From a virus (Duplodnaviria; Heunggongvirae; Uroviricota; Caudoviricetes): a stretch of 44,661 nucleotides of DNA. Position numbers and translations under genes: made by a program. Each line of letters begins with the position of its first letter. Position 1 is the stretch's first letter. The notes beneath the pieces are model-generated. The model was not told where the DNA came from, did not search any database, and saw nothing but the letters and a program-made list of their open reading frames with translations. The stretch lies in the IMG/VR virus record IMGVR_UViG_2654587540_000005; one strand, written 5' to 3'. Below, one piece after another: positions 415 through 44,661 of the stretch.

Positions 415-1677
415 CTAATTCATTTTCTTTATTCTCTGGGCGAATTCAAACGGTGTAATGTGTTCTTTTCTGTTGGCATTAAGGTAGTCAGCCCACCATT
501 GTAACATGAGTTTTCTCTCTTCGAGATGTTCCGCTTTGTGGATATATGCTGCCCGAACCGAGTTACGCTCTTGGTGGCTCATTTGACGTTCTACGGCGTC
601 TCTTGACCATAACCCAGATTCGATTAATGCACTACAAGCCATAGTTCGAAAACCGTGACCACAAACTTCAGCTTTCGTGTCGTAACCCATGGTGCGAAGA
701 GCCTTGTTAACAGTGTTTTCGCTGATTGGTTTGTCATCGCGACTAAAACCAATGAACATAAGATCCTTTTCTCCACTTATAGCTTGGAGCCTTTTAAATA
801 ATACTACAGCCTGCTTACTTAGCGGCACAAGATGAGGGGTTTTCATTTTTGAGCCCCTATTTGAATACTTAACCCCCTCCAATTCTCGTCTTTCTGCAGG
901 GATTGTCCATAAGGAGTTTTTGAAATTCACCTCAGACCAACGAGCGAATCTAAGTTCACTTGAACGGATGAAAGTCAGTAGAGTTAATTGAACTGCTATT
1001 TGAGTGATACCTTTCCCTTTATAGGCATCAATCCGTTTGAGAAGCTCAGGAAGTCGTTCGAGGGGAAGGGCAGGGCGGTGATTACTCTTGGCAGTGGTTA
1101 CAGCGCCTGCGAGGTCGTAAGCTGGGTTTTGGTCAATCAAAGCATTGTGAACAGCATACCGCATGATGGCAGTGATTCTTTGTTGTAAACGGGCAGCAAG
1201 TTCAAGATGTCCAGTTTCCTCTGCTTTTTTCAGAGGAACAAGTAAATCACGAGTTTTAAGCTCACTAATGTTCCGCTTACCGATAACAGGAAATACATGA
1301 GTGATCAGGCTGTTTAATACGGTAGTTCTGTGACTGTCTGACCAGGTTCTGTTGCTTGAGTGCCAGTCTCTGGCAACAGTTTCAAAAATGAGTAAGCCTT
1401 TCTCTTCAATCTTTTCTGTTTTTCGCTTTTCGCCAGGGTCAACATTGTTGGCAATGAGTTGCCTTGCTTCTTCTCTTCTACGACGAGCTTCTGCTAAAGA
1501 CACTTCGGGATAAACACCAAGCGCCAACATTTTTTGCTTACCAGAAAAGCGATATTGAAGCCGCCAGTATTTTGAACCCGTAGGGTGAACCAGGAGATGC
1601 ATACCATCCCCATCTGTTAACTTGACGGGCTTTTCAGTAGGTTTCGCATTTCTGACTTTTACCTCAGTTAGTGCCAT
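415..1677 (-). CDS. int: Tyrosine site-specific integrase, P4-like family
   Basis: 420 aa ORF with ATG at 1677 preceded by GGAGG. N-terminus (KPTEKPVKLTDGDGMHLLVHP...YWRLQYRF) is a P4-type arm-binding domain and the C-terminal half has the tyrosine recombinase pattern (...HGFR...RAAYIH...). Confidence 0.85.
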   Translation of the reverse strand: MALTEVKVRNAKPTEKPVKLTDGDGMHLLVHPTGSKYWRLQYRFSGKQKMLALGVYPEVSLAEARRRREEARQLIANNVDPGEKRKTEKIEEKGLLIFETVARDWHSSNRTWSDSHRTTVLNSLITHVFPVIGKRNISELKTRDLLVPLKKAEETGHLELAARLQQRITAIMRYAVHNALIDQNPAYDLAGAVTTAKSNHRPALPLERLPELLKRIDAYKGKGITQIAVQLTLLTFIRSSELRFARWSEVNFKNSLWTIPAERRELEGVKYSNRGSKMKTPHLVPLSKQAVVLFKRLQAISGEKDLMFIGFSRDDKPISENTVNKALRTMGYDTKAEVCGHGFRTMACSALIESGLWSRDAVERQMSHQERNSVRAAYIHKAEHLEERKLMLQWWADYLNANRKEHITPFEFAQRIKKMN

Positions 1678-3472: not shown

Positions 3473-3930
3473 CTCTTCCTTAAAATTAATGACCAGATAA
3501 AACCTCCGCCAACCTTAGCAATGAACTGGCCGGCAATGATTCCTGGCATAAGAGAGCCGAATGCGATAAGCGGGAACGATATAGAATCAATAACTGAAGC
3601 GGTTATGTTTGAGGCATTTGCCTTAACTGACCAAGGCTTGCGAATCAACAGTTGATAGACGCTTCCGTCTCCCAGTGATGCGAGAACGAAGGAGGCTGAG
3701 GAGGCAATGGCGATCATGCCGCCTGCAGGATTAATGATGTAACTTAAAACTCCTGACAGTACAGCAAGCCCAGTAACTTTAATAAACCCGATTCGCTCAT
3801 GGAGTACGTCACGAAGAATGAAATCAAGGCCAATCAGAGCGAAAGAATTGACGATAGACCACCATGGTCCGAACAGAAACACAAGGTAGTTAGCTGCGCA
3901 GATTGCTAATACATATACAAGTGCAGCCAT
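3469..3930 (-). CDS. Polytopic membrane protein, putative YhhQ/VUT-family queuosine-precursor transporter (short form)
   Basis: Hydrophobic ORF; preferred start is ATG at 3930 with a GAGGG RBS, whereas the ORF-track start at 3987 is a GTG. Several predicted TM helices and YhhQ-like segments by recollection. Translationally coupled to the DpdA-like gene. Confidence 0.4.
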   Translation of the reverse strand: MAALVYVLAICAANYLVFLFGPWWSIVNSFALIGLDFILRDVLHERIGFIKVTGLAVLSGVLSYIINPAGGMIAIASSASFVLASLGDGSVYQLLIRKPWSVKANASNITASVIDSISFPLIAFGSLMPGIIAGQFIAKVGGGFIWSLILRKR

Positions 3931-4083
3931 AGTTGACCCTCTGACATGTGAATGAGCGAAGAGATAGCCGCCCATGCAATAAGGCACGCTATGGCGACCA
4001 GAACTGGGTTGTAATGCATGGTGACTCCGGATAAAGAAAAACCCGCTGGGTGCGGGTTTGTTATGCGTCGAATGGGTTAGGCG

Positions 4084-4323
4084 TCATCCAAGGTATGGCT
4101 TCTTCCAGTCCTCGCTGGTAGCCAACCTCTCCATGGCAAGCAGAATCGGCAGATTAGATTCGTCTGTCTTCTTCATGATTTCCCAATGAAGCCGTTTTAA
4201 CTCGTGGACCAGCTGGTCTCTGTTTGTTTCCGCATCATTGCTGGCAAGCATCAAGCAGCACTCACCAACAATTCGACACGCTTCCCGGTACAGGTCTTCT
4301 GAAAGCTTCTCATATTCTGACAT
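4084..4323 (-). CDS. Hypothetical early-left protein
   Basis: ATG at 4323 with a GGAGGGG RBS; the ORF-track start at 4341 has a weaker context. 79 aa. Confidence 0.5.
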   Translation of the reverse strand: MSEYEKLSEDLYREACRIVGECCLMLASNDAETNRDQLVHELKRLHWEIMKKTDESNLPILLAMERLATSEDWKKPYLG

Positions 4324-10053: not shown

Positions 10054-10305
10054 TCAGGCAGCCTTGTTGTAAATGTTGCAGGTATCAAGTAAGTAATTAG
10101 ATGGAGCGCCATAAATTATGAATTCATCGTTTGTCGGGTCCATCTCCATCTCTTGGCCTATTGCCATTCTTGCGTCAGTGTCATCAGCGGCGAAGCATAA
10201 AACAGCCCACGCACCCATTGTTTTAAACAGAACTGCAATTGGCTGTGGTTTTACTGAATTTGCGTTAGCGCGAAAATCACAAATCGCACTTTCATGAAAC
10301 TCCAT
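10054..10305 (-). CDS. Hypothetical protein
   Basis: 83 aa ORF with ATG at 10305 and a GAGGTGAG RBS. Confidence 0.5.
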   Translation of the reverse strand: MEFHESAICDFRANANSVKPQPIAVLFKTMGAWAVLCFAADDTDARMAIGQEMEMDPTNDEFIIYGAPSNYLLDTCNIYNKAA

Positions 10306-10367
10306 ATCTCACCTCAAATAAGTGGTTTGCTGCCAAAACAATGAACCATCCGGAAATTCCAGATAGT

Positions 10368-10592
10368 TCATAATTCACTCTTCAATACTTCCAACTTACT
10401 AATCGCCGATAGATATCCGCGCTGATAGGGCATCATCATTCCTTCGAGCTTGCCACTTCTTAACTCCTCCCTGAGCAATTGTATTGCTTGATCAATAACC
10501 TCTGCCTTAGCGTCCTTTATGGCTTGCTTGCGGGGCTTTGCTTTCTGCTTTGGCAGATTTCTCAAGCATGATGGAATGTATGTCTGATTCAT
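10368..10592 (-). CDS. Hypothetical protein downstream of N
   Basis: ATG at 10592 with a GAGGTAAG RBS, directly following the N stop. Confidence 0.5.
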   Translation of the reverse strand: MNQTYIPSCLRNLPKQKAKPRKQAIKDAKAEVIDQAIQLLREELRSGKLEGMMMPYQRGYLSAISKLEVLKSEL

Positions 10593-10595
10593 CAC

Positions 10596-10859
10596 TTACC
10601 TCGCTGTAACCTGCTTACTTGTACGATGACCAGCTGCGAAAAGCGCAACTTCTGGCAGGCAGACAGTACCACCTTCAACTTCCTTCTGAAGCGTTCCGGC
10701 AAGCGAAATGGCTTTTGTTACGCGTGTACTGCATGTGCTATTTGCTACCCGGCGCGAAAGAGAAGCGTCCTGCATTGCCTGCTCACGTTGAGCCTGTCTG
10801 CGTGCTCTGCGGCGATTTCTGGCGTTATCGTCAGCCAGATATGTAATGACTACTGTCAT
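10596..10859 (-). CDS. N: N-type transcription antitermination protein (P22 gp24-like)
   Basis: 87 aa with an arginine-rich motif (NARNRRRARRQAQREQ) near the N-terminus and a C-terminus (VTKAISLAGT.QKEVEGG...AAGHR.SKQ.TAR) matching P22 gp24. Sits immediately downstream of nutL. Confidence 0.7.
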   Translation of the reverse strand: MTVVITYLADDNARNRRRARRQAQREQAMQDASLSRRVANSTCSTRVTKAISLAGTLQKEVEGGTVCLPEVALFAAGHRTSKQVTAR

Positions 10860-10966
10860 GTTGACCTCCGATGATTGACTTTGGCGGTGACGCGCCGGGT
10901 GCTTATCTTCCGGTTGCCGTCGTGCAGCTGCACTTCACGTCACCCCAAAGCCAACTACTCTTTGGT

Positions 10967-11009
10967 TCCCGCATTTCGGCGGGACAATCCCATCAATGTT
11001 AAAGAGCCT
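10967..11009 (-). promoter_or_regulatory. nutL (boxA plus boxB)
   Basis: On the leftward transcript, boxA-like TGTTAAAGAGCC (10998..11009) is followed by a boxB hairpin at 10967..10984 whose sequence is identical to the nutR boxB. Confidence 0.6.
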
Positions 11010-11057
11010 GCCAATCTGTTCCGTTTGGCTTCCAGCGTCCTGCTGATGGCTAAAGAA

Positions 11058-11095
11058 TACTGTAGGTATTTTATTGTGTAAATACCCAAGGTATT
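11058..11095. promoter_or_regulatory. oL operator sites / pL region
   Basis: Two 13-bp ATAC-N5-GTAT palindromes (atactgtaggtat, atacccaaggtat) and a possible degenerate third at 11127..11139, matching the oR sites. Confidence 0.55.
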
Positions 11096-11226
11096 TATTT
11101 TTGGTGAAATAATGATAAGCAAATGAATACAAAGGATATTTATTTTTTCGGTGTCTGCTTGTTCAGTGTTTTTTATGCGGGATATGTGAAGTGGATCCCG
11201 ATAGCTATTGCTGCCGGGATTATGGG

Positions 11227-11595
11227 TTAGTCAGCGAAGGTTAAGACGAGAATTACCTTAATGATGTCTGCTACAACAGACACAGCCATAGATAAACCAA
11301 AGACGATCCAAGCCATAGAGATGTCTTCACTACCATCGTATAGCGTTCCGTAATCACTGGTGTAAGGCGTAAATGTCGCGCCTTGATACAACAGGTATAA
11401 GCTTGAACCATAGAGGATAAATGCAGATATCCCTTGTATTGCTATGATCACCAGAATCATGAAACGAGCTGATCTATGCGCCCAAGCCTGGCTTATTTTT
11501 TCTGATAGAGATTTCGCAATAAAAGCATGCGCTAAGCCGTAAATTGTCGAGATTGCCAACATCCCAAAAAAGCTTGATATAGCGGTTCCAACCAT
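11227..11595 (-). CDS. Small polytopic membrane protein at the rexAB position
   Basis: ATG at 11595 with an AAGGGG RBS, 18 nt downstream of the cI stop and co-oriented. Three to four predicted TM segments; no similarity to lambda RexB noticed. Confidence 0.6.
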   Translation of the reverse strand: MVGTAISSFFGMLAISTIYGLAHAFIAKSLSEKISQAWAHRSARFMILVIIAIQGISAFILYGSSLYLLYQGATFTPYTSDYGTLYDGSEDISMAWIVFGLSMAVSVVADIIKVILVLTFAD

Positions 11596-34061: not shown

Positions 34062-35336
34062 ATGGCTACTTGGCAACAAGGAATCAACTCAGGCGGTTTT
34101 CTTGCTGGCATCGGTGCGCAAAATGAGAATGCGCCAAAGGCAAGCGACATTAACGCAACGCTTGGTCTGATCCGCGAAAACAATGAACTGGCTCGCTCAG
34201 GTGCAAATAACGTTGGTCTGACCGCGTTACGTGGTCTGGCTGGAGTTGCTGATATTTATAAGCAGGAACAGCAACAGAAAGCGATTAATGCGTTCAATAA
34301 GGTTCATGCTGATGCATGGGCTTCTGGTGAACCATCGGGACTATTTAAGTTTGCCCAGGAAAATCCAGCGTTTGTTGCACAGGCACAACAGGCGTTTTCC
34401 GGTCTTAATGATCAGCAACGCAACGATATGGGCGATTTAGCCATGAGGGCTAACGTCGCTCTTTCTCAGGGACCGGAAGCCTACAGCAAATTCATTACTG
34501 ACAACAAGGACAGGTTAAATCGCGTTGGTGCTAATGCTGACTGGATGATTCAGACAGGTATCCAGAATCCAGAGCAGCTATCACACATGCTGACTACTAT
34601 GTCTCTCGGTGCGATTGGACCAGAAAAGGCGTTTGCTGTTCAGGATAAGATGGTTGGTCGCCAGCAGGATCAGCAAAAAATTAACGAAACAATCCGTAAT
34701 AATGACATGACAAATGCCAGAGGGTGGGCAAGCAACAATATTGCGCAACAAAATGTCAATCTTCGTCGGATGGAATTAGAGGACAAGAAATACGACAGAC
34801 TCATCGCAAATGAAACTAATGCCTTAAAACTTGCTGAATTGCAGGACAAGAGATTGCAGAATCAGCAAGCTATGGAGCAGGCAAAGCGAGATAAGGCTGA
34901 TGCGTACAACTCTGGAATGGATAATCTTTCCAGAACGATAGAGACGGCTACAAAAGTTCTTAATAGCCCGGGTTTCACGGGATATTTCGGAACAAACCTA
35001 AACCCACTATCGAGTAGATTCATTCCAGGAACAGAGGCTGCTGATACAGAAACTCTGGTTGACACGCTGAAATCTCAGGGATTCTTATCTGGCATTCAGC
35101 AGATGAAAGGGATGGGGGCTTTAAGTAATGCCGAGGGGCAAAAGGTAATGGATGCTATTGGTAGTTTGTCCCCAAATCAGTCTGAAAAATCAGCCAGAGC
35201 AGCTATCAAAACAATCATAAAAACCACTGAGATGGCTCAGAAACGTATGCAACAGAAATACGGGAAGGACATACAACCGTCTCAACAGCAGCTTTCTGAT
35301 GATGACCTGATTAATAAATATCTCGGAGGGCAGTAA
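34062..35336 (+). CDS. Ejection protein (P22 gp20-like)
   Basis: 424 aa in the gp20 position. Confidence 0.65.
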
Positions 35337-37447
35337 TGGCCTATAGTCGTGAACAGTTGATGACGGCGTTAAGGAATGCTGATGCTGCCGGTGATACTGA
35401 GGGAGCACGTCGCATTGCTCAGATGCTGTCTTCTGATGATCAATCCACTCAAAACCAATCGCAGCCAGAAGAACAATCTCTGGTAGGAAAAGCTACTGAC
35501 TGGCTCACTGGTGGTCAAAGTGCAGGGCAAATTGCAGAACAGGCTGGTCGTGGTCTGGTAAACATACCATTTGACGTATTGCAGGGTGGCGCAAGTCTGA
35601 TTAATGCAATCAGCCAGGGGCTTGGTGGTCCAAAGGTTTTGGATGATGTTTATCGCCCTGTCGATCGACCTACAGACCCTTACGCGCAAGCCGGTGAAAC
35701 AATTGGTGGGTATCTCCTGCCAATTGGCACAGCGGCAAAAGCTGTTGGAGCGACAGCAAAGCTCGCTGGAGATATCGGTTCCGCAGGAAACATGATTGCA
35801 GGTTCTCTTGCTGATGCTGCAAATCAGGAGGGCGACTTTGCACAAAATGCTGCCATTAACGGTGGTATCAATATTGGTGCTCAAGGCGTTCTTTCAGGTG
35901 TCGGGCGCGTTATTGCGCCAAGAGTTTCACAGGCTCTTGGTGGTGCAGCACTGAATTCTGCTAATGATGTTTCCAGAATGGCAAAGTCAGGTGCTGGGCG
36001 TCAGTCAATTGCCAGTCAGGCCGCTAATGTGTCCGAAGATGTAGCAAAAGCGGCTGAGTCTGCTGGAATTGATATAAACGCATTAACACCAGGAATGCGA
36101 TCTGGAAGTCGTGGAATTGCACAAGCCGAAGGCGCATTGGCATCAACACCAGGAATTGTTCAGGATGCCCATCAGGCAGCATTTAACGAAATATCATCAA
36201 AGTTAAGTCGAAACCTTGATGAATTTGGGGCCGCATCTGGAACGGCATCAGAAAAAAGTGCGGCTATAAAACAAAGGATTCTTCAAAATCTTGATCAGAT
36301 GAAGGATGCCGAGCGCGCGGCATGGGATGACGTGCGGTCAACAATGCCAAATCAAAAAGCAAGAATGCTAAATGGTAATGCCGTTATTCAGGCAGAGCGA
36401 TCTGCTGGCATACCGCTTACTCCTGAAATGAAACAGTTTGTTCAGGCAAACAATCAAGGTGGAGTAACATTTGATGGCATGAAAGCATGGAGAGCGAAAT
36501 TTGCTGATGCTGAGCAAAAATATAAGCGTAGCGGAGAGGCAAATGCGGCAAGGAGAGCAGGGGAAATACGCCGGGCAATTACTGATGATATGCGCACAAT
36601 GGCGGAAAACGGCGGATTTCTTGATGACTGGCAAAAAGCTAATGATCTGTCTAAAGCGAGGCTATCCGCACAAGAGAGTGCAGAGTCTGTTTTTGGGCGT
36701 GATTTGGCAACAGATGCACTGATTACGAATGGAGTAAAATCTCTTCAATCATCGTCAGCTAAAGGTCTTAATGGTCCTGCTGGATTCCATTCTATGATCC
36801 GCGCGCTGCCAGAATCAGAGCGTGTTCCTGCTATATCATCAATGTTGCAGGATGCTATCTCGCATGGTGTACGTGGTGGCAAATCTGATGCAGCAGGAAT
36901 TAACCATATCGCAGGGATACTTACCCCACAAAATGTAAAAGCCATTAGCAGATATTCCTCAGAACTTGGAAGAATTGCTGATGCATATGGCACTCTTGCA
37001 AGAGCGGCAGTGAAGCCTCAGCAGTATATTGAAAGAACAGGGAGAACAGCCAATGTTCTACGTGATCTTGACGCTGGTTTATCCAACGTTACCTCAACAG
37101 TATTAAATGCAATTGCAAACTCAACGTCGGGTGCCATTGTTGGTGGAGCAGGTGGGGGCATTGCAGGCGCGGCCGCAGGTGCTTTAGTTGGCGCCGGGTT
37201 AAAAGGTGCTGTATCTAAAATTGCCACCACGCGTAGCGGTCGATATGCGATAGAGAAAGCAGTTCAGGAAGCCACGAAAGCAGTAAGAGCTGGCGGAAGT
37301 AAAGAAGCATTAGCGGCGGCGGAACGCAGATTTATGGCAAATAAAGCCGCCGTAAAAGCAATACGTGATGCAGTTGGAAACGAAGAGTTCAATCGCTTAG
37401 CGAGGGCTGGCATTGTAGCGTCGCTAAGCGGAATAGCACAGGAGTAA
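35336..37447 (+). CDS. Ejection protein (P22 gp16-like)
   Basis: 703 aa in the gp16 position, glycine/alanine-rich. Confidence 0.65.
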
Positions 37448-37771
37448 TTAATCATCCATGGATGGATTGAGCTTATCTCGTGTTGATGTGGCGATTTGTC
37501 CTACATTCCTAAGCCAAGATTTCAAATCCTTGATATTGTCATTGATTTCATGAATATCTTCTTTTTTTAGTCTGTTAATATTATTCTCAATAATTTCAAT
37601 GGATTGCTCAATATCAGATATAGTGAATGATAGTTTGTTCTTCTCATCTTTTATTGAGTTTTTAAGTGCTTCGTTCTCAGTCTTGAGGTCAGATATCTTT
37701 TGTTTTAAAGATGCCAGTTGGTACTGAACCACAATGAGTGCGATAGCTATCACGATAACTGTTGTATACAC
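37448..37771 (-). CDS. Membrane-anchored coiled-coil protein (moron at the sieA position)
   Basis: GTG start at 37771 with an AAGGAGG RBS; N-terminal TM helix (TTVIVIAIALIVV) then a lysine/glutamate-rich coiled coil. AT-rich; converges on the gp16 stop with no gap. Confidence 0.55.
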   Translation of the reverse strand: MYTTVIVIAIALIVVQYQLASLKQKISDLKTENEALKNSIKDEKNKLSFTISDIEQSIEIIENNINRLKKEDIHEINDNIKDLKSWLRNVGQIATSTRDKLNPSMDD

Positions 37772-37889
37772 ACCAACCTCCTTAGTTTTGAGCAGGATAC
37801 CATGAAAAAAGTAAACATCTTTTGCCTACTTCACATTTGAATGGTTTGTCATTAGGATGTTTCCGGTTTTTTCAAATATGGAAATTGAT

Positions 37890-38309
37890 ATGAAGAGGAT
37901 TATCGGCGTTGTTGCTGGCGCTATATTGTTATCTGGGTGCGCAACTATTGTTGGTGACGAAACACAGCTCGTGCAAGTGAACAGCAATCCTTCCGGTGCG
38001 AGCTTTAAAGTAAAAGACGAATCAGGCGTGATTGTTGCGCAAGGCAAGACCCCGCAAGGAGTAACTCTTGCCAAGTCAGATGGTAGTTATTTTGGCAAAA
38101 AGAGCTACCAGATCACTATGGAAAAGGATGGGTACGAACCAGTTACCCTGCCAATCAAAGCCAATGCTAATGGTTGGTATATTGGTGGAAACCTTGTGTT
38201 TGGTGGGTTAATTGGTTGGCTTGCTGTAGATCCTTTTAATGGTGGGATGTATACCTTGAAGCCAAAAGAGGCAAACGCATCTCTTATACCATCAACAAAG
38301 CAAGACTAA
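37890..38309 (+). CDS. Lipoprotein (moron at the sieA position)
   Basis: ATG at 37890; signal peptide with lipobox (MKRIIGVVAGAILLSGC). AT-rich. Confidence 0.65.
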   Translation: MKRIIGVVAGAILLSGCATIVGDETQLVQVNSNPSGASFKVKDESGVIVAQGKTPQGVTLAKSDGSYFGKKSYQITMEKDGYEPVTLPIKANANGWYIGGNLVFGGLIGWLAVDPFNGGMYTLKPKEANASLIPSTKQD

Positions 38310-38318
38310 TAAATAGGA

Positions 38319-38340
38319 CCCACCTTCAGGTGGGTTTTTT
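38319..38340. terminator. Bidirectional hairpin terminator
   Basis: CCCACC-TTCAG-GTGGG followed by TTTTTT on the plus strand, overlapping the mnt stop on the minus strand. Confidence 0.55.
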
Positions 38341-38577
38341 GTACAAATCCTTCAGCGTATCAAACACCATCTTCTTAACAAGCTCTGACTGCTCATCAGC
38401 GAGTCGTTCTGCATCGTCGCGATATCCAGTCACAGGCGATGGTTTTGATAGAGCATCTTGGACGATTTGTAACAACTCGGAGTTCATTGATCTCCCATTC
38501 GCCTCCGCCCTGAATTTTAATTTCTCCCTTACTTCCATAGGCATACGGAAGTTAAAGTGCGGATCATCTCTAGCCAT
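38326..38577 (-). CDS. mnt: Mnt repressor (immI region)
   Basis: 83 aa (MARDDPHFNFRMPMEVREKLKFRAEANGRSMNSELLQIVQDAL...) matching P22 Mnt, a ribbon-helix-helix repressor. Confidence 0.85.
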   Translation of the reverse strand: MARDDPHFNFRMPMEVREKLKFRAEANGRSMNSELLQIVQDALSKPSPVTGYRDDAERLADEQSELVKKMVFDTLKDLYKKPT

Positions 38578-38599
38578 GCCATCACTCCAAGTTGGTGTA

Positions 38600-38652
38600 T
38601 TGACATGATAGAAGCACTCTACTATATTCTCAATAGGTCCACCGTGGACCTA
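38600..38652. promoter_or_regulatory. Pant with arc operator and mnt operator; divergent Pmnt
   Basis: TTGACA at 38600..38605; the 21-bp arc operator ATGATAGAAGCACTCTACTAT at 38606..38626; TATATT at 38624..38629; the 17-bp palindromic mnt operator AGGTCCACCGTGGACCT at 38635..38651. Confidence 0.75.
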
Positions 38653-38667
38653 TATTGTGAGGTGAAT

Positions 38668-38829
38668 ATGAAAGGAATGAGCAAGATGCCGCAGTTCAAT
38701 TTGCGGTGGCCTAAAGAAGTATTGGATTTGGTACGCAAGGTGGCGGAAGAGAATGGTCGGTCTGTTAACTCTGAGATTTATCAGAGAGTAATGGAAAGCT
38801 TTAAGAAGGAAGGGCGCATTGGCGCGTAA
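38668..38829 (+). CDS. arc: Arc repressor
   Basis: 53 aa ([53 protein letters not shown]) matching P22 Arc, starting at ATG 38668 with a GAGGTGA RBS. Confidence 0.9.
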
Positions 38830-38834
38830 AGTTG

Positions 38835-38897
38835 AAGCCCCAACTGCGGGAACAGTCAGGGCTTCGGTATCAACAAATCGGATTAGGAAATATTGAC
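38835..38897 (-). ncRNA. sar: Putative sar antisense RNA (arc-ant intercistronic region)
   Basis: By analogy with P22 immI. A minus-strand hairpin (GAAGCCC...GGGCTTC) followed by a U-rich tract sits opposite the ant RBS; the ends are not defined. Confidence 0.35.
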
Positions 38898-39876: not shown

Positions 39877-42108
39877 ATGACAGACATTACAGCCAATGTT
39901 GTGGTAAGCATGCCTTCGCAACTCTTCACTATGGCGCGTTCTTTTAAAGCCGTAGCCAATGGCAAAATTTATATCGGTAAAATTGACACTGACCCTGTAA
40001 ATCCTGAAAACCAGATTCAGGTTTATGTGGAGAACGAAGATGGTTCTCACGTTCCTGTTGCACAGCCAATCATCATTAACTCTGGCGGGTATCCTGTATA
40101 TAACGGACAGATTGCCAAGTTCGTAACTGTGCAAGGCCATTCTATGGCTGTTTATGATGCATACGGTGCGCAGCAGTTCTATTTTCCTAATGTGCTGAAG
40201 TATGACCCTGATCAGTTTAGAACAATAATAGAGTCAAATTATGGTGCGGGGCATGTTGGTACTTCGTCTGGACTAACAATTCAGCAGTTGATTGATTCTT
40301 TTATTGTAGTTACACCACAAATGTTTGGTGAATCTGGAAAGTCAAATGATTCAACAATAGCAATTAACTCTGCATTGGACTATCTTGAGTCTCTCGGTGG
40401 TGGGATTATTTATCTTCCTCCAGGTAAATATTACGTCAGCATTGAAAATTCAGGTCATAATTATTCATGCATTAGAGTTCCAGCTAACGTAACTTTCTGT
40501 GGGGCTGGTGCTGGATCTACCATCATTCAGAGACTACCCACTGAGAGGGGGATGGATGGTGTCTTGATAACAAATAAATATTATGATACTAGAACTGGCT
40601 ATGGGGCTGCGGGCAATATTGTTTTTAGAGATTTTACAATCACTGACGGTAGCGCAACCCCAACAAGGGATTATGGTGATTTAATCGGTTTAGGTCATAG
40701 CAAAAATGTAACTATAGAGAGAGTGGAGCAAGGGAGACATGATCAACATTTTGTTGATATTGCAGGATCAACCGATGTAACAGTCAAAGACTGTCACGGG
40801 TCGTGTGATATGGAGGTGGACCATATTACGTGGAATTGTGATATACAGATTGATTCCGCTCAACCAAACGCAATACTTGGAATTAAAGCTGATGGCACAC
40901 CTAGCACAAATATAATTATTAGCGGAAATAAACTTCAAAACAAAAGCTCAAATTTGCAAATTGAAACAGGACATGCTGGGGGAGTATATAGAAATATTAT
41001 TATTTCTGATAACATACTTGATGGGGCATATTTTCAAGACTCATCAGTTATTGGTTGTAACTCAACAACAGCTACCATTATCAATTTGAGCATAAATAAC
41101 AATCAAATACTAACAAATAATATAAATTCAAGAGGTGTTAATCTTTATTGTCTTGGGAATAACGAAAAACTTATTGGTATTTCTTTTAGTAATAATATTA
41201 TAAGAGGTTATGCTAGGATTGGTGCATGGTTTGGGACTAATGGTAATTATACTGGAACGAAGTTTCCTCATGATGATGTAACAATAATAGGAAATAAATT
41301 CTTTCTAACATCGCCTTCATCTGGAACATTTGTTCAAGGTGTTGTTGTTGCTGGTTGGCGATCTGTTGTATGTAGTGATAATATAGTTGAGATATATTCT
41401 GATAATGAATTTTCTTCAGGGTGTTCGGGGATATCAGTTTGGAAAAATGGTAGTGCTAAGGTAAGTGATAACAATATCTCTAGAACATGTGGTGCAACAC
41501 CTGACGTATCATCTTCAGTTATTTCGTTGATACTAATCACCCCTGAACCTTCCAGCATTGATAAGGCGTCATCAATCCATATTAATGGAAATGCTTTCTT
41601 TGGAGATATTCCTAGATATGCAATAAATCACCAAGAAGGGTGGATTGAAGGATATGACATGATAGTTGTATCAGGCTCTCATGGTAGATTTAACCAAACA
41701 TTTATAGGCACGCAAGGGGCGCATATGTATGAAACGTACCCAATTTCTGATATGACAAATTTCAATCAACCAGTGTCAATAAATGGTCAATATAGAAGGC
41801 AGGTATACAGCGGAAATAATTACCAGTCAACGTTCAATTTGAAGAAAAATGGAAGTGAAACAAGTGGGGCTAAAGTGGATTTTTTTATATCTAATGAACG
41901 CTCAAAAATAACAGGTTCTGAACAATTGAATGTAGCATATATATCTCCAACTGAGTCTGTGGGAATCACCGCTACATCAATAGATTTGTCATCAGGAACA
42001 CTTAATATAATTACTGGAACAAATGGTGTATCTATGAATTTAAATCCATCCAATAAGCAGCCTGAAATAAGAAATAGCGCGTATATAAGCGCAAGGATTT
42101 CCATTTAA
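39877..42108 (+). CDS. Tailspike: P22-type head-binding N-terminus fused to a divergent beta-helix receptor-binding domain
   Basis: The first ~115 aa match the P22 gp9 head-binding domain ([12 protein letters not shown]...[33 protein letters not shown]…VLKYDPDQ). The remainder is AT-rich and repeat-like (…IIISGNKL…IIISDNIL…LSINNNQIL…), as in parallel beta-helix proteins. Confidence 0.8.
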
Positions 42109-42235
42109 AATTCAGAAATTAGCCATAAAAAGCATGAAGTCTATCATCCAAGTGTCAATCGATCGATGACTTGCTGTGGTTGATGAGACAAAACTGAGAC
42201 ACACAAAGCTTTGCACTGGATTGCAAGGCTTTGTG

Positions 42236-43417
42236 CTATCCGATGGTGTTTAAGTTTCCTAACTCCGCCTTTTCATCAAGCCAGTCCGCCCACCACTGCA
42301 TCATTTCTCTGCGCTTATCGAGATACTGAGCATGGTTGTAAATTCCGCGCACAGATCCGCCGTTGGCATGTGCCAGTTGCACTTCAATAGCGTCAGCAGG
42401 CCATTCGTGCTCGTTCATAATCGTGCTGAATTCATGCCTGAATCCGTGACCGCTTTCCAGACCTTCATAGCCGATTTGTTTGATCACAAGCAGTACAGCG
42501 TTCTCGCAAATTGGCTTCTTCTTATCGTTGCGCCCGGCAAAAACAAACTCTGACACTGGTTTAGTGATTGAGCTTAGCGTAGTGAGAAGTTCAACTACCT
42601 GGTCTGACATCGGTACTACATGAATCTTGCGACCCTTCATCACACTGGCGTCGATGGTGATAATCCTGTTTTCAAAATCGACGTTCTTCCATAGCATGGA
42701 ACGAAGTTCTTTCGTTCTTAGGGCGGTGTAGCGTAAAACTTTAGTCGCAATAAGCGATACGATACTTCCTGAAAATGTTGCCAGTGCTTTGTTGAATGCC
42801 GGGATCTGGTCTGCAGGAAGAAACGGGAAGTTCTTCTTGCGGTATCCTTTCATGGCGTCTGCAAGGTCAGGTGCCGGGTTATATTTAGCCCTTCCGGTGA
42901 CAATAGCGTAACGGAAAACCTCTCCGCATCTTCTGCGGGCTTTGTTGGCTCGCTCCATTGCACCGCGATCTTCAAATCTGCGGATTACTTCCAGCAGTTG
43001 CATCGGCTCAATATCCTGAATTTCAAGGCCGCCGATGATGGGTAAAATGTCGTCGTCAAACATTTTGGCAAGTTCGTTTGCATAGCCTACTGACCAGACT
43101 TGCTTCTTGTGCTCGTACCATTCCTTGTAAATGGCGCTAAAGGAATTGTTATTAGACGAAGCCTTTTTCGCTTTTACCGGATCGATGCCAACCGAGATGT
43201 CTTTCCTCGCGGTCCATGCTTTATCCCTTGCCTCCTGCAAAGTCATAAGCGGATATTTTCCGACGGTCAGTATTTTTTCCTTACCGTCAATCTTGTAGCG
43301 AAGCTGCCATACCTTTTTCCCGGATACAGGAACATAAAGGTACAGGCCATTACCATCGAGAAGGCGGTATGGTTTTTCTTTCGGCTTTGCTGCTTCAATC
43401 TGCTTAACGGTGAGCAT
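42236..43417 (-). CDS. intS: Tyrosine integrase, IntS-like (argW-associated)
   Basis: P4-type integrase adjacent to argW and co-oriented with it. ATG at 43417 (MLTVKQIEAAKPKEKPYRLLDG...); the ORF-track start at 43453 is a GTG. Contains the conserved HGFRH and tyrosine regions. Confidence 0.85.
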   Translation of the reverse strand: MLTVKQIEAAKPKEKPYRLLDGNGLYLYVPVSGKKVWQLRYKIDGKEKILTVGKYPLMTLQEARDKAWTARKDISVGIDPVKAKKASSNNNSFSAIYKEWYEHKKQVWSVGYANELAKMFDDDILPIIGGLEIQDIEPMQLLEVIRRFEDRGAMERANKARRRCGEVFRYAIVTGRAKYNPAPDLADAMKGYRKKNFPFLPADQIPAFNKALATFSGSIVSLIATKVLRYTALRTKELRSMLWKNVDFENRIITIDASVMKGRKIHVVPMSDQVVELLTTLSSITKPVSEFVFAGRNDKKKPICENAVLLVIKQIGYEGLESGHGFRHEFSTIMNEHEWPADAIEVQLAHANGGSVRGIYNHAQYLDKRREMMQWWADWLDEKAELGNLNTIG

Positions 43418-43578
43418 GGGTAAAAATCCGGTGGGTAAAATTATTTTATCCACTTTTTACCCGTCATGGTGTGCGGCTGTCAACGATCTGACGCGAACCA
43501 TTACGAACTGTGAATCTATGGAAGGCTTGATATGCAGGGGATTTTGCGGACTAGTACGGATGGGAGCGAACTGATAAA

Positions 43579-43653
43579 TGGTGTCCCCTGCAGGAATCGA
43601 ACCTGCAATTAGCCCTTAGGAGGGGCTCGTTATATCCATTTAACTAAGAGGAC
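43579..43653 (-). tRNA. argW: tRNA-Arg (anticodon CCU)
   Basis: 75-nt minus-strand cloverleaf: 7-bp acceptor stem (GTCCTCT/AGGGGAC), anticodon stem AGCCC/GGGCT with loop CUCCUAA giving anticodon CCU, T-arm GGTTCGATTCC, 3' ACCA. Confidence 0.9.
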
Positions 43654-43728: not shown

Positions 43729-44661
43729 TTATGCTGGGTTTTTATCATTTTTCTTAATGTTTTCCGCACGTTCTGCTTTTTGGCGTGCTTCTGCTTTACG
43801 CTTGTTGCTCATGTCGTTACGAATCTGTGCATGACTCATTAACGCGAAGATAAAGGTGCCGCCGCAGATGTTCCCCGCTAAAGTAGGTAGTGCGAAGGGC
43901 CAGATGAAATCGCTCCAGTGCAGCGTGCCGTTAAACACCAGATAGAGGATTTCAACAGAACCGACAACGATGTGGGTGGTGTCACCCAGTGCAATAAGCC
44001 AGGTCATCAATATAATCACCACAATCTTTGCCGCACCCGCAGCAGGAAACATCCAAACCATAGTGGCGATCAGCCAGCCGGAAATGATCGCGTTGGCAAA
44101 CATCTCGCTGGGGGTGTTCTTCATCACATCCATGCCGATTTTGACAAATGCATCGCGAGTTTCTTCATTGAAGATAGGCATATATTCAAATGCCCATGCA
44201 GCAATACCTGTCCCGAGAATATTACCCAGCAGCACGACGCCCCATAATCGCATAAGTAAGCCGACGTTGCTCATTGTCGGTTTTTGCATGACGGGTAGTA
44301 CCGCAGTCACGGTGTTTTCGGTAAATAATTGCTGGCGGGCCATAATGACGATAATAAAACCAAAGGTATAACCGAGATTCTCCAGTAAGAAGCTGCCTGG
44401 CACTCCTTCCAGTTCGACATGAAATATCCCTTTTGCCAGTAGCGAAGCGCCCATCGACAGACCCGCCGCAATGGCTGACCACAGTAGCGCCATTGCGTCG
44501 CGTTCCAGCTCTTTTTCACCATCCTGGCGGATATGCTCATGAATTGCCATCGCCCGGGAGGGGAGTCGGTCTTCATCTATTTCTATTTTTTTGCCGCGCT
44601 CTTTTTCTTCGCTCTCAACTTCAATTTCGTCGCTGTGTTGATCAATTTTGTCGTTGTCCAT
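43729..44661 (-). CDS. yfdC: Formate/nitrite-transporter-family inner membrane protein YfdC (host gene)
   Basis: 310 aa polytopic membrane protein upstream of argW, in the same arrangement as E. coli K-12 yfdC-argW-intS; the start codon is the last codon of the window. Confidence 0.75.
   Translation of the reverse strand: MDNDKIDQHSDEIEVESEEKERGKKIEIDEDRLPSRAMAIHEHIRQDGEKELERDAMALLWSAIAAGLSMGASLLAKGIFHVELEGVPGSFLLENLGYTFGFIIVIMARQQLFTENTVTAVLPVMQKPTMSNVGLLMRLWGVVLLGNILGTGIAAWAFEYMPIFNEETRDAFVKIGMDVMKNTPSEMFANAIISGWLIATMVWMFPAAGAAKIVVIILMTWLIALGDTTHIVVGSVEILYLVFNGTLHWSDFIWPFALPTLAGNICGGTFIFALMSHAQIRNDMSNKRKAEARQKAERAENIKKNDKNPA

What the first reader, a model, noticed from the sequence alone, without database searches (positions are those of the whole stretch)
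37448..38309. AT-rich convergent moron pair replacing sieA between the ejection genes and immI
Seen in sequence: where P22 carries sieA, this prophage has two visibly AT-rich genes with strong independent RBSs. One is a minus-strand TM-anchored coiled-coil protein (37448..37771) whose stop directly abuts the gp16 stop. The other is a plus-strand lipoprotein with an LSGC lipobox (37890..38309), followed by a bidirectional terminator. Inference: the compositional contrast and the insertion at a known superinfection-exclusion locus suggest horizontally acquired, lysogen-expressed envelope proteins, for example a lipoprotein that blocks a receptor or DNA entry, or a virulence-type moron.
Basis: partly seen in the sequence, partly recalled or inferred. 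Interest (0 to 1): 0.6.

Follow-up and report, generated by a model that had tools for sequence, protein, structure and literature searches.

The report
Two swappable prophage envelope genes
Two small accessory genes for cell-envelope proteins sit where phage P22 keeps its sieA exclusion gene; the layout is already published for phage epsilon34, their function is untested, and one of them uses the same start signals as sieA.

Summary
Both ORFs are real. The 1.4 kb around them is 97.4% identical to Salmonella phage epsilon34 genes 14 (hkcB homologue) and 15. A 2008 paper already described these as unknown-function genes of the variable "ant moron" of P22-like phages.

- The two genes diverge from each other; they are not a convergent pair.
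- Only hkcB is AT-rich (33% GC). The lipoprotein gene (45%) matches the window (47%).
- Only hkcB has a strong ribosome-binding site.

hkcB is predicted to be one long helix with an N-terminal membrane anchor. It does occupy the sieA slot: 47 of the 49 bases before its GTG match those before P22 sieA. In other P22-like contigs the same 33-base leader precedes at least 12 unrelated small ORFs. Eleven of these look membrane-bound or secreted, and SieA is the only one characterised.

The lipoprotein has a transthyretin-like beta-sandwich and probably goes to the outer membrane. It is a self-contained gene-plus-terminator unit from a very large uncharacterised bacterial family. It also occurs in at least three other prophage positions, including the HK97 gp15 slot.

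The two genes assort independently. The best reading is prophage-expressed envelope cargo, possibly superinfection exclusion, but this is inference only.

The parts
35336..37447 (+). Gene 16-type ejection (DNA transfer) protein, CUS-3/epsilon34 type. It forms the 3' boundary of the cargo slot.
   Evidence: 703-aa ORF. It is 97-100% identical to gp16 homologues next to hkcB in IMG/VR contigs and about 98% identical to CUS-3 gp16. The upstream neighbours hit Pfam P22_gp7 and Inj_translocase (gp20).
37448..37771 (-). hkcB homologue (epsilon34 gene 14). 107 aa, GTG start, an N-terminal transmembrane anchor, and a helix of about 85 residues. It occupies the sieA slot.
   Evidence: - phrog_5962, E 1e-58.
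- 99% identical to epsilon34 gp14, 97% to CUS-3 hkcB, 56% to HK620 hkcB.
- AlphaFold2 gives a single helix, residues 2-101, pLDDT 80.
- GC 33.3%.
- No similarity to SieA.
37769..37801 (-). Conserved slot leader GGTATCCTGCTCAAAACTAAGGAGGTTGGTGTG, comprising SD and the GTG start. The identity with P22 sieA's upstream region extends to 37820.
   Evidence: - A single exact match in the window, with 0 expected by chance.
- 47 of the 49 nt before the GTG are identical to P22 sieA.
- The same 33-mer precedes at least 12 unrelated ORF families in IMG/VR.
37802..37840 (+). 12-codon remnant of the 5' end of P22 hkcC (MKKVN...). It marks the left junction of the lipoprotein module.
   Evidence: The P22 + strand ORF 1839/1851-2216 of L003 starts MKKVNIG. 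The window shares ATGAAAAAAGTnAACAT and then diverges to a stop.
37830..37858 (+). Sigma-70-like promoter candidate for the lipoprotein gene: TTCACA, 17 nt, TAGGAT.
   Evidence: 9 of 12 consensus match. The -10 region and downstream block TTAGGATGTTTCCGrTTTTTT is shared with the homologue that lies between tail genes I and J in a Pseudescherichia prophage. That copy has TTGAAC, 17 nt, TAGGAT. Function is not shown.
37890..38309 (+). Lipoprotein gene (epsilon34 gene 15). 139 aa, lipobox LSGC with Cys17 at 37938-37940 and Ala at +2. It has a transthyretin/PEGA-like beta-sandwich plus a conserved Gly-rich hydrophobic segment (residues 96-118).
   Evidence: - phrog_6823, E 6e-86.
- PEGA 17.6 bits, below the 20.8 cut-off.
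- AlphaFold2 pLDDT is above 90 for most of residues 30-95 and 120-135, and below 50 for 96-118.
- 3682 50%-identity clusters match at E <= 1e-3.
- dN/dS against epsilon34 is 0.03.
38316..38341 (.). Bidirectional intrinsic terminator shared by the lipoprotein gene (+) and mnt (-).
   Evidence: plus the annotation in EU570103. Homologues of the lipoprotein gene in three other prophage contexts each carry their own hairpin with a T-run within about 30 nt of the stop; the Arsenophonus copy has a hairpin with only a short T tail.
38326..38896 (.). immI control region, given as context: mnt 38326-38577 (-), Pmnt/Pant 38600-38633, arc 38668-38829 (+), sar RNA 38830-38896 (-).
   Evidence: Pfam Arc plus Repressor_Mnt. 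Promoter matches of 11/12 and 10/12. Rfam sar RF00262 at 71.6 bits. epsilon34 annotation.

Best explanation
The interval holds two separate accessory ("moron") genes in the hypervariable region between ejection gene 16 and immI of a P22-like (Lederbergvirus) prophage. The arrangement is that of epsilon34 genes 14 and 15.

**hkcB (37448-37771, minus strand)**
- It is the occupant of the sieA slot. This slot has a fixed leader, SD and GTG start on one side and the 3' end of gene 16 on the other. Between them, unrelated small ORFs are exchanged among phages.
- The product is predicted to be a single-pass inner-membrane protein: a roughly 20-residue N-terminal anchor followed by one helix of about 85 residues that probably forms a coiled-coil oligomer.
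- No positive charge precedes the anchor and KQK follows it. By the positive-inside rule the helix is probably cytoplasmic (about 65%).
- The gene runs antisense to the late operon. It is therefore expected to be made from the repressed prophage and to be run over by late transcription.
- Inferred function, at about 35-40%: a SieA-like block of incoming P22-like phage DNA delivery at the inner membrane.

**Lipoprotein gene (37890-38309, plus strand)**
- It is a self-contained unit of candidate promoter, gene and terminator.
- The product is probably an outer-membrane lipoprotein (Ala at +2). It has a beta-sandwich domain and a conserved glycine-rich hydrophobic segment.
- It belongs to a very large uncharacterised bacterial family and has been captured repeatedly by temperate phages.
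- Inferred function: it changes the cell surface of the lysogen. Phage exclusion or receptor masking is put at about 30%, and a host-fitness role at about 30%.

The two genes do not work as a pair.

**Shown:** gene structure, homology, mobility, the shared leader, the predicted folds, and purifying selection on the lipoprotein gene.
**Inferred:** cellular location, topology, expression state and all functions.
For: **Identity**
- 97.4% over 1.4 kb to epsilon34 and 99.9% to an E. coli prophage.
- The region was described as the "ant moron" with genes 14 and 15 of unknown function (PMC2629481).

**Slot**
- 47 of 49 nt upstream of hkcB equal those upstream of P22 sieA.
- The 33-nt leader is followed by at least 12 unrelated ORF families in 79 IMG/VR instances, SieA among them.
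- 11 of the 12 have transmembrane or signal-peptide-like N-termini.
- All are convergent with gene 16. Stop-to-stop gaps are mostly -4 to +63 nt, with two outliers at 250 and 403 nt.

**Accessory status**
- Of 80 contigs with this gp16 C-terminus, 42 carry hkcB. The rest carry a 161-aa lipoprotein, 112-aa or 140-aa ORFs, the PEGA-like lipoprotein alone, or nothing.

**hkcB properties**
- Fold, GC 33%, and a conserved anchor and C-terminal motif across homologues of 53-91% identity.
- In CUS-3, hkcB is the last gene of a co-oriented run starting with mnt.
- SieA with 85 bp of upstream DNA is sufficient for exclusion (PMC10883804).

**Lipoprotein properties**
- An invariant Cys and conserved motifs.
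- Homologues of 64-78% identity lie in the HK97 gp15 slot (tail chaperone T to tape measure) of E. coli and Proteus prophages, between tail genes I and J, and just after N. The location of HK97 gp15 is taken from PMC3594210.
- In three of these four other prophage contexts the copy is followed by its own hairpin plus T-run; the Arsenophonus copy has only a short T tail.
- A distant relative is fused to an OmpA-type barrel.
- dN/dS is 0.03.

**Independence of the two genes**
- hkcB is in 72 of 5426 complete E. coli genomes and the lipoprotein allele in 123. Both together occur in 9.
Against: - There is no experimental datum for either gene, and no literature on hkcB function was found.
- Neither protein matches SieA, Cor, Llp, Bor or any PADLOC defence model above noise.
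- The annotated -35 of the putative PsieA is not conserved upstream of hkcB. The scan found no consensus promoter on the minus strand there.
- All other cargo families of the slot are also of unknown function, so "guilt by association" rests on SieA alone.
- The lipoprotein family is mostly non-phage and occurs as chromosomal singletons. This fits a general envelope role at least as well as an anti-phage role.
- The lipoprotein gene is co-oriented with the late operon, so it could be a late-expressed gene.
- hkcB dN/dS of 0.3-0.8 is based on very few substitutions and is uninformative.
Confidence: 0.6

Rival explanations
1. The genes are host-fitness or virulence cargo, not anti-phage. The lipoprotein, and possibly hkcB, would alter envelope properties of the lysogen such as serum resistance, adhesion or stress tolerance. 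This would resemble lambda Bor or Lom, with no effect on phage infection.
For: - The lipoprotein belongs to a huge, mostly non-phage family, with 3682 clusters.
- It occurs as chromosomal singletons with no phage genes nearby in Enterobacter and Kosakonia.
- It appears in both podophage and siphophage prophages. This argues for a target in the host rather than in one virion type.
- Selection on it is strongly purifying.
Against: - There is no homology to Bor, Lom, TraT or any virulence factor model.
- Several of its prophage positions are classical exclusion-gene slots: the HK97 gp15 slot and the position after N.
- For hkcB, the allelic relation with sieA points towards exclusion.
Confidence: 0.25
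2. hkcB serves the phage's own cycle together with gp16. It might handle or regulate the membrane-active ejection protein. Alternatively, its transcript might act as an antisense RNA on the 3' end of gene 16.
For: - In all 63 IMG/VR loci with a complete hkcB, the gene lies against the end of a CUS-3/HK620-type gene 16.
- In the leader-anchored set the stop-to-stop gap is 0 in 14 of 14, and only this gp16 C-terminal type is seen.
- No terminator lies between hkcB and gene 16, so hkcB transcripts must run antisense into gene 16.
Against: - 38 of 80 contigs with the same gp16 C-terminus lack hkcB. Some have no gene at all there.
- hkcB subtypes (epsilon34-like and HK620-like) are shuffled relative to gp16 subtypes.
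- The slot is filled by unrelated proteins in other phages.
- Being antisense to the late operon makes co-expression with gp16 unlikely.
- The linkage is explained by physical adjacency.
Confidence: 0.08
3. The two genes form one envelope-spanning two-component device, in the manner of an i-spanin/o-spanin pair. It would combine an inner-membrane coiled-coil protein with an outer-membrane lipoprotein.
For: The architecture is superficially similar, and the two genes share a 118-bp divergent control region. hkcB gives weak PHROG matches to Rz-like spanins, E 1e-3 to 4e-2.
Against: - The genes assort independently. 12 of 64 hkcB loci have the lipoprotein, and 6 of 18 lipoprotein loci lack hkcB. 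In E. coli genomes the counts are 72, 123 and 9.
- The lipoprotein occurs in siphophage prophages without hkcB.
- The charge distribution predicts that the hkcB helix is cytoplasmic.
- The genes are divergent and lie outside the lysis cassette.
- The spanin matches are at the level expected for any coiled coil.
Confidence: 0.04
4. One or both ORFs are decaying or non-functional remnants.
For: The region is in high genetic flux and contains a clear remnant, the hkcC stub at 37802-37840. hkcB dN/dS is fairly high.
Against: - hkcB keeps its length (107-109 aa), its anchor and its C-terminal motif in most of the 64 loci, down to 50% identity. In two loci (L080, L081) only residues 19-107 or 24-107 matched.
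- It keeps a strong SD.
- The lipoprotein has dN/dS 0.03, 28 invariant columns across 38 homologues, and an intact lipobox.
Confidence: 0.03

Closest known systems
Salmonella phage epsilon34 genes 14 and 15 (the "ant moron"; Villafane et al. 2008, PMC2629481)
   Same: The genes, order, orientation, terminator and flanking mnt/arc/sar/ant are the same. Identity is 97.4% at the nucleotide level and 99% and 98% at the protein level.
   Different: The host background appears to be E. coli (99.9% identity to E. coli strain 162.2), and the tailspike differs. The paper assigns no function and does not mention the leader shared with sieA.
P22 SieA (superinfection exclusion; Leavitt et al. 2024, PMC10883804)
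   Same: hkcB has the same position and strand, convergent with gene 16. It has the same 5' leader, SD and GTG (47/49 nt). It is also predicted to be an inner-membrane protein. SieA blocks DNA injection, and its escape mutants map to gp16 and gp20.
   Different: There is no sequence similarity. hkcB has one transmembrane segment against SieA's three or four. It lacks the FxRYPxEAxxFNK motif. It is a long coiled-coil helix rather than a compact polytopic protein. Its function is untested.
HK97 gp15 moron (inner-membrane exclusion protein; PMC3594210)
   Same: Close homologues of the lipoprotein gene (68-70% identity) sit in exactly the gp15 slot, between the tail assembly chaperone and tape measure genes, in E. 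coli and Proteus prophages. Like gp15, the family has many chromosomal non-phage homologues. The unit has its own terminator.
   Different: gp15 is a small inner-membrane protein of the YebO family. The protein here is an unrelated lipoprotein that is probably in the outer membrane.
Cor (phi80/N15/HK022), T5 Llp and lambda Bor lipoproteins
   Same: All are small phage-encoded lipoproteins made by lysogens or early in infection that act at the outer membrane.
   Different: Only the signal peptide matches the Cor models (PHROG 1119 residues 1-20, E 0.003; NCBIfam 11.7 bits against a cut-off of 31). There is no match to Bor or Llp families. The mature domain is a transthyretin-like beta-sandwich with a Gly-rich hydrophobic segment, which is a different fold class from these proteins as far as I recall.
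Rz/Rz1 two-component spanins
   Same: They also combine a membrane-anchored coiled-coil protein with a lipoprotein.
   Different: The genes here are divergent, assort independently and lie outside the lysis cassette. hkcB topology is predicted to be N-out/C-in. The spanin matches are at noise level.

Membership tests
Moron (Juhala/Hendrix definition, as summarised in PMC3594210) | Present in some and absent from other otherwise syntenic related phages | tested here: met
   hkcB is in 42 of 80 contigs with the same gp16 C-terminus, and the lipoprotein is in 18 of 80. Some contigs have no gene between gene 16 and the tailspike.
Moron (Juhala/Hendrix definition, as summarised in PMC3594210) | Own terminator | tested here: met
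   Met for the lipoprotein gene: hairpin at 38316-38341 with a T6 run. Homologues in three other prophage contexts each have their own hairpin with a T-run; the Arsenophonus copy has only a short T tail. Not met for hkcB, which abuts gene 16 with no terminator.
Moron (Juhala/Hendrix definition, as summarised in PMC3594210) | Own promoter active in the repressed prophage | tested here: inconclusive
   Lipoprotein gene: a 9/12 consensus match at 37830-37858, partly conserved in a second phage context. hkcB: it shares the leader and the -10 end of the putative PsieA but not its -35. Activity cannot be tested with these tools.
Moron (Juhala/Hendrix definition, as summarised in PMC3594210) | Base composition different from neighbouring genes | tested here: met
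   Met for hkcB: 33.3% against 46.9%, z -2.97. Not met for the lipoprotein gene in this window (44.8%). It is met for its homologue in the E. coli ED1a siphoprophage (43% against 56-58%).
SieA (P22 superinfection exclusion A, types A/B/C) | Sequence homology, including the FxRYPxEAxxFNK motif, and three to four transmembrane segments | tested here: not met
   BLASTP of hkcB against P22 SieA finds nothing significant. hkcB has one hydrophobic segment and SieA has four.
SieA (P22 superinfection exclusion A, types A/B/C) | Location between genes 16 and 9, opposite strand, directly after gene 16 | tested here: met
   In addition, 47 of the 49 nt before the start codon are identical.
SieA (P22 superinfection exclusion A, types A/B/C) | Blocks DNA injection by P22-like phages when expressed alone | not testable with these tools
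   This needs plating, K+ efflux and DNA-entry assays of the kind used in PMC10883804.
Bacterial lipoprotein (Lgt/LspA substrate), outer-membrane sorted | Signal peptide with lipobox [LVI][ASTVI][GAS]C, and no Asp at +2 | tested here: met
   MKRIIGVVAGAILLSGC|ATIVGD. Cys17 and Ala18 are invariant in 38 homologues. Lipidation and sorting themselves were not tested.
Cor / Llp / Bor phage lipoproteins | Homology of the mature domain | tested here: not met
   Cor models match only residues 1-20 or 1-30 (the signal peptide) and score below cut-off. No Bor or Llp family appears in the Pfam or PHROG output.
PEGA domain (PF08308) | Score above the Pfam gathering threshold | tested here: inconclusive
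   17.6 bits against a cut-off of 20.8. Two distant relatives score similarly. The predicted fold is a transthyretin/CnaB-like beta-sandwich, which is compatible with PEGA.
Two-component spanin (Rz/Rz1) | Co-oriented, overlapping or adjacent genes in the lysis cassette that are inherited together | tested here: not met
   The genes are divergent, lie outside the lysis cassette and assort independently.

The most novel reading that the evidence does not exclude
The sieA position of P22-like phages would be a cassette-exchange hotspot. It has a fixed 33-nt leader with SD and GTG on one side and the end of gene 16 on the other. Between them at least a dozen unrelated small membrane or secreted proteins are swapped. 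On this reading they are alternative prophage-expressed blocks to DNA delivery that co-evolve with the variable C-termini of the ejection proteins. hkcB would then be a new type of exclusion protein, built as a membrane-anchored coiled coil. The neighbouring lipoprotein would be a broadly distributed outer-membrane exclusion factor shared by podophage and siphophage prophages.
Probability: 0.3. Interest if true: 0.6.

Novelty: already known. Interest (0 to 1): 0.38.

Why it matters
Only 22 of 66 sequenced P22-like phages carry sieA (PMC10883804). What the others carry in its place has not been studied.

If the other occupants of the slot, hkcB included, are exclusion proteins, they would be a ready-made set of natural inhibitors of the gp7/gp20/gp16 DNA-delivery conduit. 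The shared leader means each one can be tested in the same single-copy construct that was used for sieA.

The lipoprotein is a member of a very large, entirely uncharacterised family of bacterial lipoproteins. A phenotype in the phage setting would give that family its first functional handle.

As it stands, the locus is an ordinary and previously described moron region.

Tried and rejected
- **PADLOC:** no credible defence-system match for either protein; only coiled-coil noise.
- **NCBIfam and Pfam:** no family above cut-off.
- **PDB sequence-profile searches:** nothing specific; hkcB hits designed coiled coils.
- **Genome-contig scan with the hkcB profile:** nothing found.
- **Literature:** no paper on hkcB function. 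"ant moron" appears only in the epsilon34 paper. Nothing on PEGA-type phage lipoproteins. The Cumby 2012 paper is not held, so its commentary was used instead.
- **RNA structure:** folding of the conserved leader gave no structure beyond shuffles, z +0.6 and -0.7. Rfam finds only sar.
- **Functional coupling of hkcB to the gp16 type:** rejected as unproven, because phages with the same gp16 type often lack hkcB.
- **Spanin-like pair:** rejected because the genes assort independently.
- **Homology between hkcB and the 109-aa transmembrane coiled-coil protein in the same slot of other prophages (L004):** only 33% over 67 residues with gaps, and they fall in different PHROGs. I treat them as analogues.
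- **Structure prediction with alignment A2:** It was rerun with A3.
Full report
**1. Observation**

- The minus-strand ORF 37448..37771 encodes 107 aa from a GTG. An AAGGAGGT lies 5 nt upstream.
- Its stop codon touches the TAA of the 703-aa gene 16 homologue, which ends at 37447.
- The plus-strand ORF is best started at 37890 (139 aa), because all 38 aligned homologues begin MKK/MKR there. It has the lipobox LSGC.
- A hairpin at 38316-38341 folds on both strands (-14.5 and -12.0 kcal/mol). A T6 run follows it on the plus strand.

Four details are wrong or overstated.
- The two genes are divergent, not convergent. Their starts are at 37771 and 37890.
- Only the first gene is AT-rich: 33.3% GC, z -2.97 against the window. 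The second has 44.8%, against 46.9% for the window.
- Only the first gene has a strong Shine-Dalgarno sequence.
- Only the first gene replaces sieA.

**2. Identity and context**

The window is a P22-like prophage.
- gp7, gp20 and gp16 homologues lie upstream.
- mnt, arc, the sar antisense RNA (Rfam, 71.6 bits), ant and a tailspike with the P22 head-binding domain lie downstream.
- The 1.4 kb spanning the finding is 97.4% identical to Salmonella phage epsilon34 and 99.9% identical to a prophage of E. coli strain 162.2.
- In epsilon34 the two ORFs are genes 14 and 15, annotated as "conserved hypothetical". Gene 14 is noted as a homologue of HK620 hkcB.
- The epsilon34 genome paper calls the region between genes 16 and 9 the "ant moron". 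It lists genes 14 and 15 as being of unknown function and stresses the high genetic flux there (PMC2629481).
- No paper on hkcB function was found.

The layout is therefore already published. The function is not known.

**3. hkcB**
- The protein falls in phrog_5962, a family of unknown function.
- It has only 21 90%-identity clusters in the large protein database.
- Among isolated phages it occurs only in epsilon34, CUS-3, SEN22, HK620 and one further E. coli phage.
- AlphaFold2 models a single uninterrupted helix, residues 2-101, with pLDDT 80. Residues 4-22 are strongly hydrophobic.
- The anchor and a C-terminal motif (W-L-K/R-N-V-G..A.S.RDK.NPS) are conserved down to 53% identity.
- No positive charge precedes the anchor and KQK follows it. 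The HK620-type variant and an analogous 109-aa protein have Glu before and Lys-Lys after. By the positive-inside rule (established knowledge) the long helix should therefore be cytoplasmic. This is a prediction, not a result.
- hkcB has no similarity to SieA and no match to any defence model.

**4. The sieA slot**

This is the most informative result.
- The 49 nt before the hkcB GTG match the 49 nt before the P22 sieA GTG at 47 positions. The matching stretch includes the SD, the GTG itself, and the -10 end of the promoter that the P22-pbi record annotates as PsieA.
- The annotated -35 is not conserved.
- I searched IMG/VR for the 33-mer GGTATCCTGCNNAAAACTAAGGAGGTTGGTGTG.
- In the 80 loci returned, the terminal GTG opens at least 12 unrelated ORF families. 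These are hkcB types (15), SieA (10), a 129-aa signal-peptide protein (10), and nine others of 62 to 149 aa.
- Eleven of the twelve have a transmembrane or signal-peptide-like N-terminus.
- All are convergent with gene 16. Stop-to-stop gaps are mostly -4 to +63 nt, with two outliers at 250 and 403 nt.
- Of ten further slot proteins checked (nine of these families plus the 161-aa lipoprotein), all are PHROGs of unknown function or have no PHROG.

hkcB is thus an allelic alternative to sieA in a cassette-like slot with fixed translation signals. The leader shows no RNA structure beyond chance.

The conserved block also contains the start and the first five codons of the divergent P22 gene hkcC. 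In the window this survives as a 12-codon stub (37802-37840), after which the lipoprotein module begins. Boundary sequences between modules are already annotated in CUS-3, so the principle is not new.

**5. Linkage with gene 16**
- In all 63 IMG/VR loci with a complete hkcB, the gene lies directly against a CUS-3/HK620-type gene 16.
- In the leader-anchored set the gap is 0 in 14 of 14.
- SieA is seen only with the P22-type gp16 C-terminus (9 of 9).

This could suggest functional coupling, but three observations argue otherwise.
- Of 80 contigs with the window-type gp16 C-terminus, only 42 have hkcB. The others carry a 161-aa lipoprotein, 112-aa or 140-aa ORFs, the lipoprotein of this finding directly, or nothing before the tailspike.
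- hkcB subtypes are shuffled against gp16 subtypes.
- Several cargo families occur with two gp16 types.

Physical adjacency is a sufficient explanation.

**6. The lipoprotein**

Family and fold:
- phrog_6823, unknown function. PEGA scores below threshold.
- Cys17 and Ala18 are invariant. So is a C-terminal block, NGWYIGGN.VFGGLIGW..VDPFNGGMY.
- Ala at +2 predicts outer-membrane sorting by the Lol rule (established knowledge).
- AlphaFold2 gives a confident beta-sandwich (residues about 22-95 and 119-135) and a low-confidence Gly-rich hydrophobic segment (96-118).
- Fold searches return only generic transthyretin, CnaB and carboxypeptidase-regulatory sandwiches. None indicates a virion protein.
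- The family is very large: 3682 50%-identity clusters at E <= 1e-3, reaching other phyla, all unnamed.
- One relative is fused to an OmpA-type barrel.

Genomic contexts of homologues of 64-78% identity:
- Between the tail chaperone T and tape measure genes of HK97-like and lambda-like prophages in E. coli and Proteus. This is the slot of the HK97 gp15 exclusion moron (PMC3594210).
- Between tail genes I and J in Pseudescherichia.
- Just after N in an Arsenophonus prophage.
- As chromosomal singletons.

Unit structure and selection:
- In three of the four other prophage contexts the copy carries its own hairpin plus T-run; the Arsenophonus copy has a hairpin with only a short T tail.
- The promoter-proximal block with TAGGAT is shared between the window and the Pseudescherichia copy.
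- dN/dS against epsilon34 is 0.03.

This is a textbook moron with strong constraint on the protein.

**7. Independence of the two genes**
- Among 64 hkcB loci, 12 have the lipoprotein.
- Among 18 lipoprotein loci in the gp16-anchored set, 6 lack hkcB.
- In 5426 complete E. coli genomes, hkcB is in 72 and the lipoprotein allele in 123. The two occur together in 9.

**8. Mechanism**

Best-supported reading: two independent prophage cargo genes for envelope proteins.

For hkcB I commit to a SieA-like role. This means a prophage-expressed inner-membrane protein that interferes with the incoming ejection-protein conduit or with DNA passage.
- Probability is about 35-40%.
- The basis is the allelic relation to sieA, the membrane anchor, and the orientation antisense to the late operon.
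- In CUS-3, hkcB also lies downstream of mnt on the same strand, which supports expression in the lysogen.

For the lipoprotein I commit to an outer-membrane surface-modifying role in the lysogen. Phage exclusion and host fitness are about equally likely, at roughly 30% each.

Rivals are a spanin-like pair, a role in the phage's own gp16 biology or antisense control, and decay. They are listed with their evidence and are less likely.

**9. Comparison and verdict**
- The genes are members of the published epsilon34/HK620 gene set and of the moron class.
- They are not members of the SieA, Cor, Llp, Bor or spanin families, because defining features were tested and not met.
- The finding itself is already known and ordinary.
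- Two observations may go beyond the literature I could search. One is the shared leader with many alternative envelope-protein cargos. The other is the multi-slot distribution of the lipoprotein moron. Both make a concrete experiment possible.

Interest: 0.38.

Noticed in passing
window 415-1677 (-), 42236-43453 (-), 43579-43653 (-), 43729-44661 (-): There are two tyrosine integrases, one at the left end and one directly after the tailspike gene. The second is followed by tRNA-Arg(CCT) and a formate/nitrite-transporter-family gene. This resembles the E. coli yfdC-argW-intS neighbourhood. The right end of the prophage should therefore lie in 42109-42235.
   Followed up: partly
window 37802-37840 (+): A 12-codon ORF shares its start and first five codons (MKKVN) with P22 hkcC and then diverges. 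It is a recombination scar marking where the lipoprotein module replaced hkcC/orf59a.
   Followed up: yes
L167-L246 (IMG/VR contigs with the 33-nt leader): At least 12 unrelated small ORF families start at the same GTG behind the same leader. Eleven look membrane-bound or secreted, and only SieA has a known function.
   Followed up: partly
L120-L126, L130-L134, L114, L138, L139 (about 3756-4241, minus strand): A different lipoprotein of 161 aa (MKKSLLIIPLLLAGC...; phrog_6067, unknown function) occupies the same position directly after the same type of gene 16. It has a diverged version of the leader (CAAAACTAAGGAG).
   Followed up: partly
L069 (= HK620) versus L002 (CUS-3): tblastn gives about 77% identity between the gp16 homologues of HK620 and CUS-3 over the full length. 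The text of PMC10883804 states 26%. I did not resolve the discrepancy.
   Followed up: no
L002 2649-4289 (CUS-3): In CUS-3, hkcB is the last gene of a co-oriented, tightly spaced run of mnt, a 199-aa ORF, a 140-aa ORF and hkcB. There it could be transcribed from Pmnt in the lysogen.
   Followed up: no
window 38600-38896: immI looks intact. Pant matches 11/12 and Pmnt 10/12, placed back to back. arc is at 38668-38829. sar RNA is at 38830-38896 (Rfam RF00262, 71.6 bits).
   Followed up: yes
window 40200-42000: The receptor-binding part of the tailspike gene is much more AT-rich than anything in the finding. Local GC is 28-38%, and the whole gene has 37% GC with GC3 of 27%. This is consistent with a recently exchanged module.
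   Followed up: no
L006, L008, L009, L010 (about 10261-11424): The E. coli siphoprophages that carry the lipoprotein homologue before the tape measure gene also carry a porin-family gene (Porin_1/Porin_4). It is inserted between the minor tail genes M and L, making a second envelope moron in the same tail operon.
   Followed up: no
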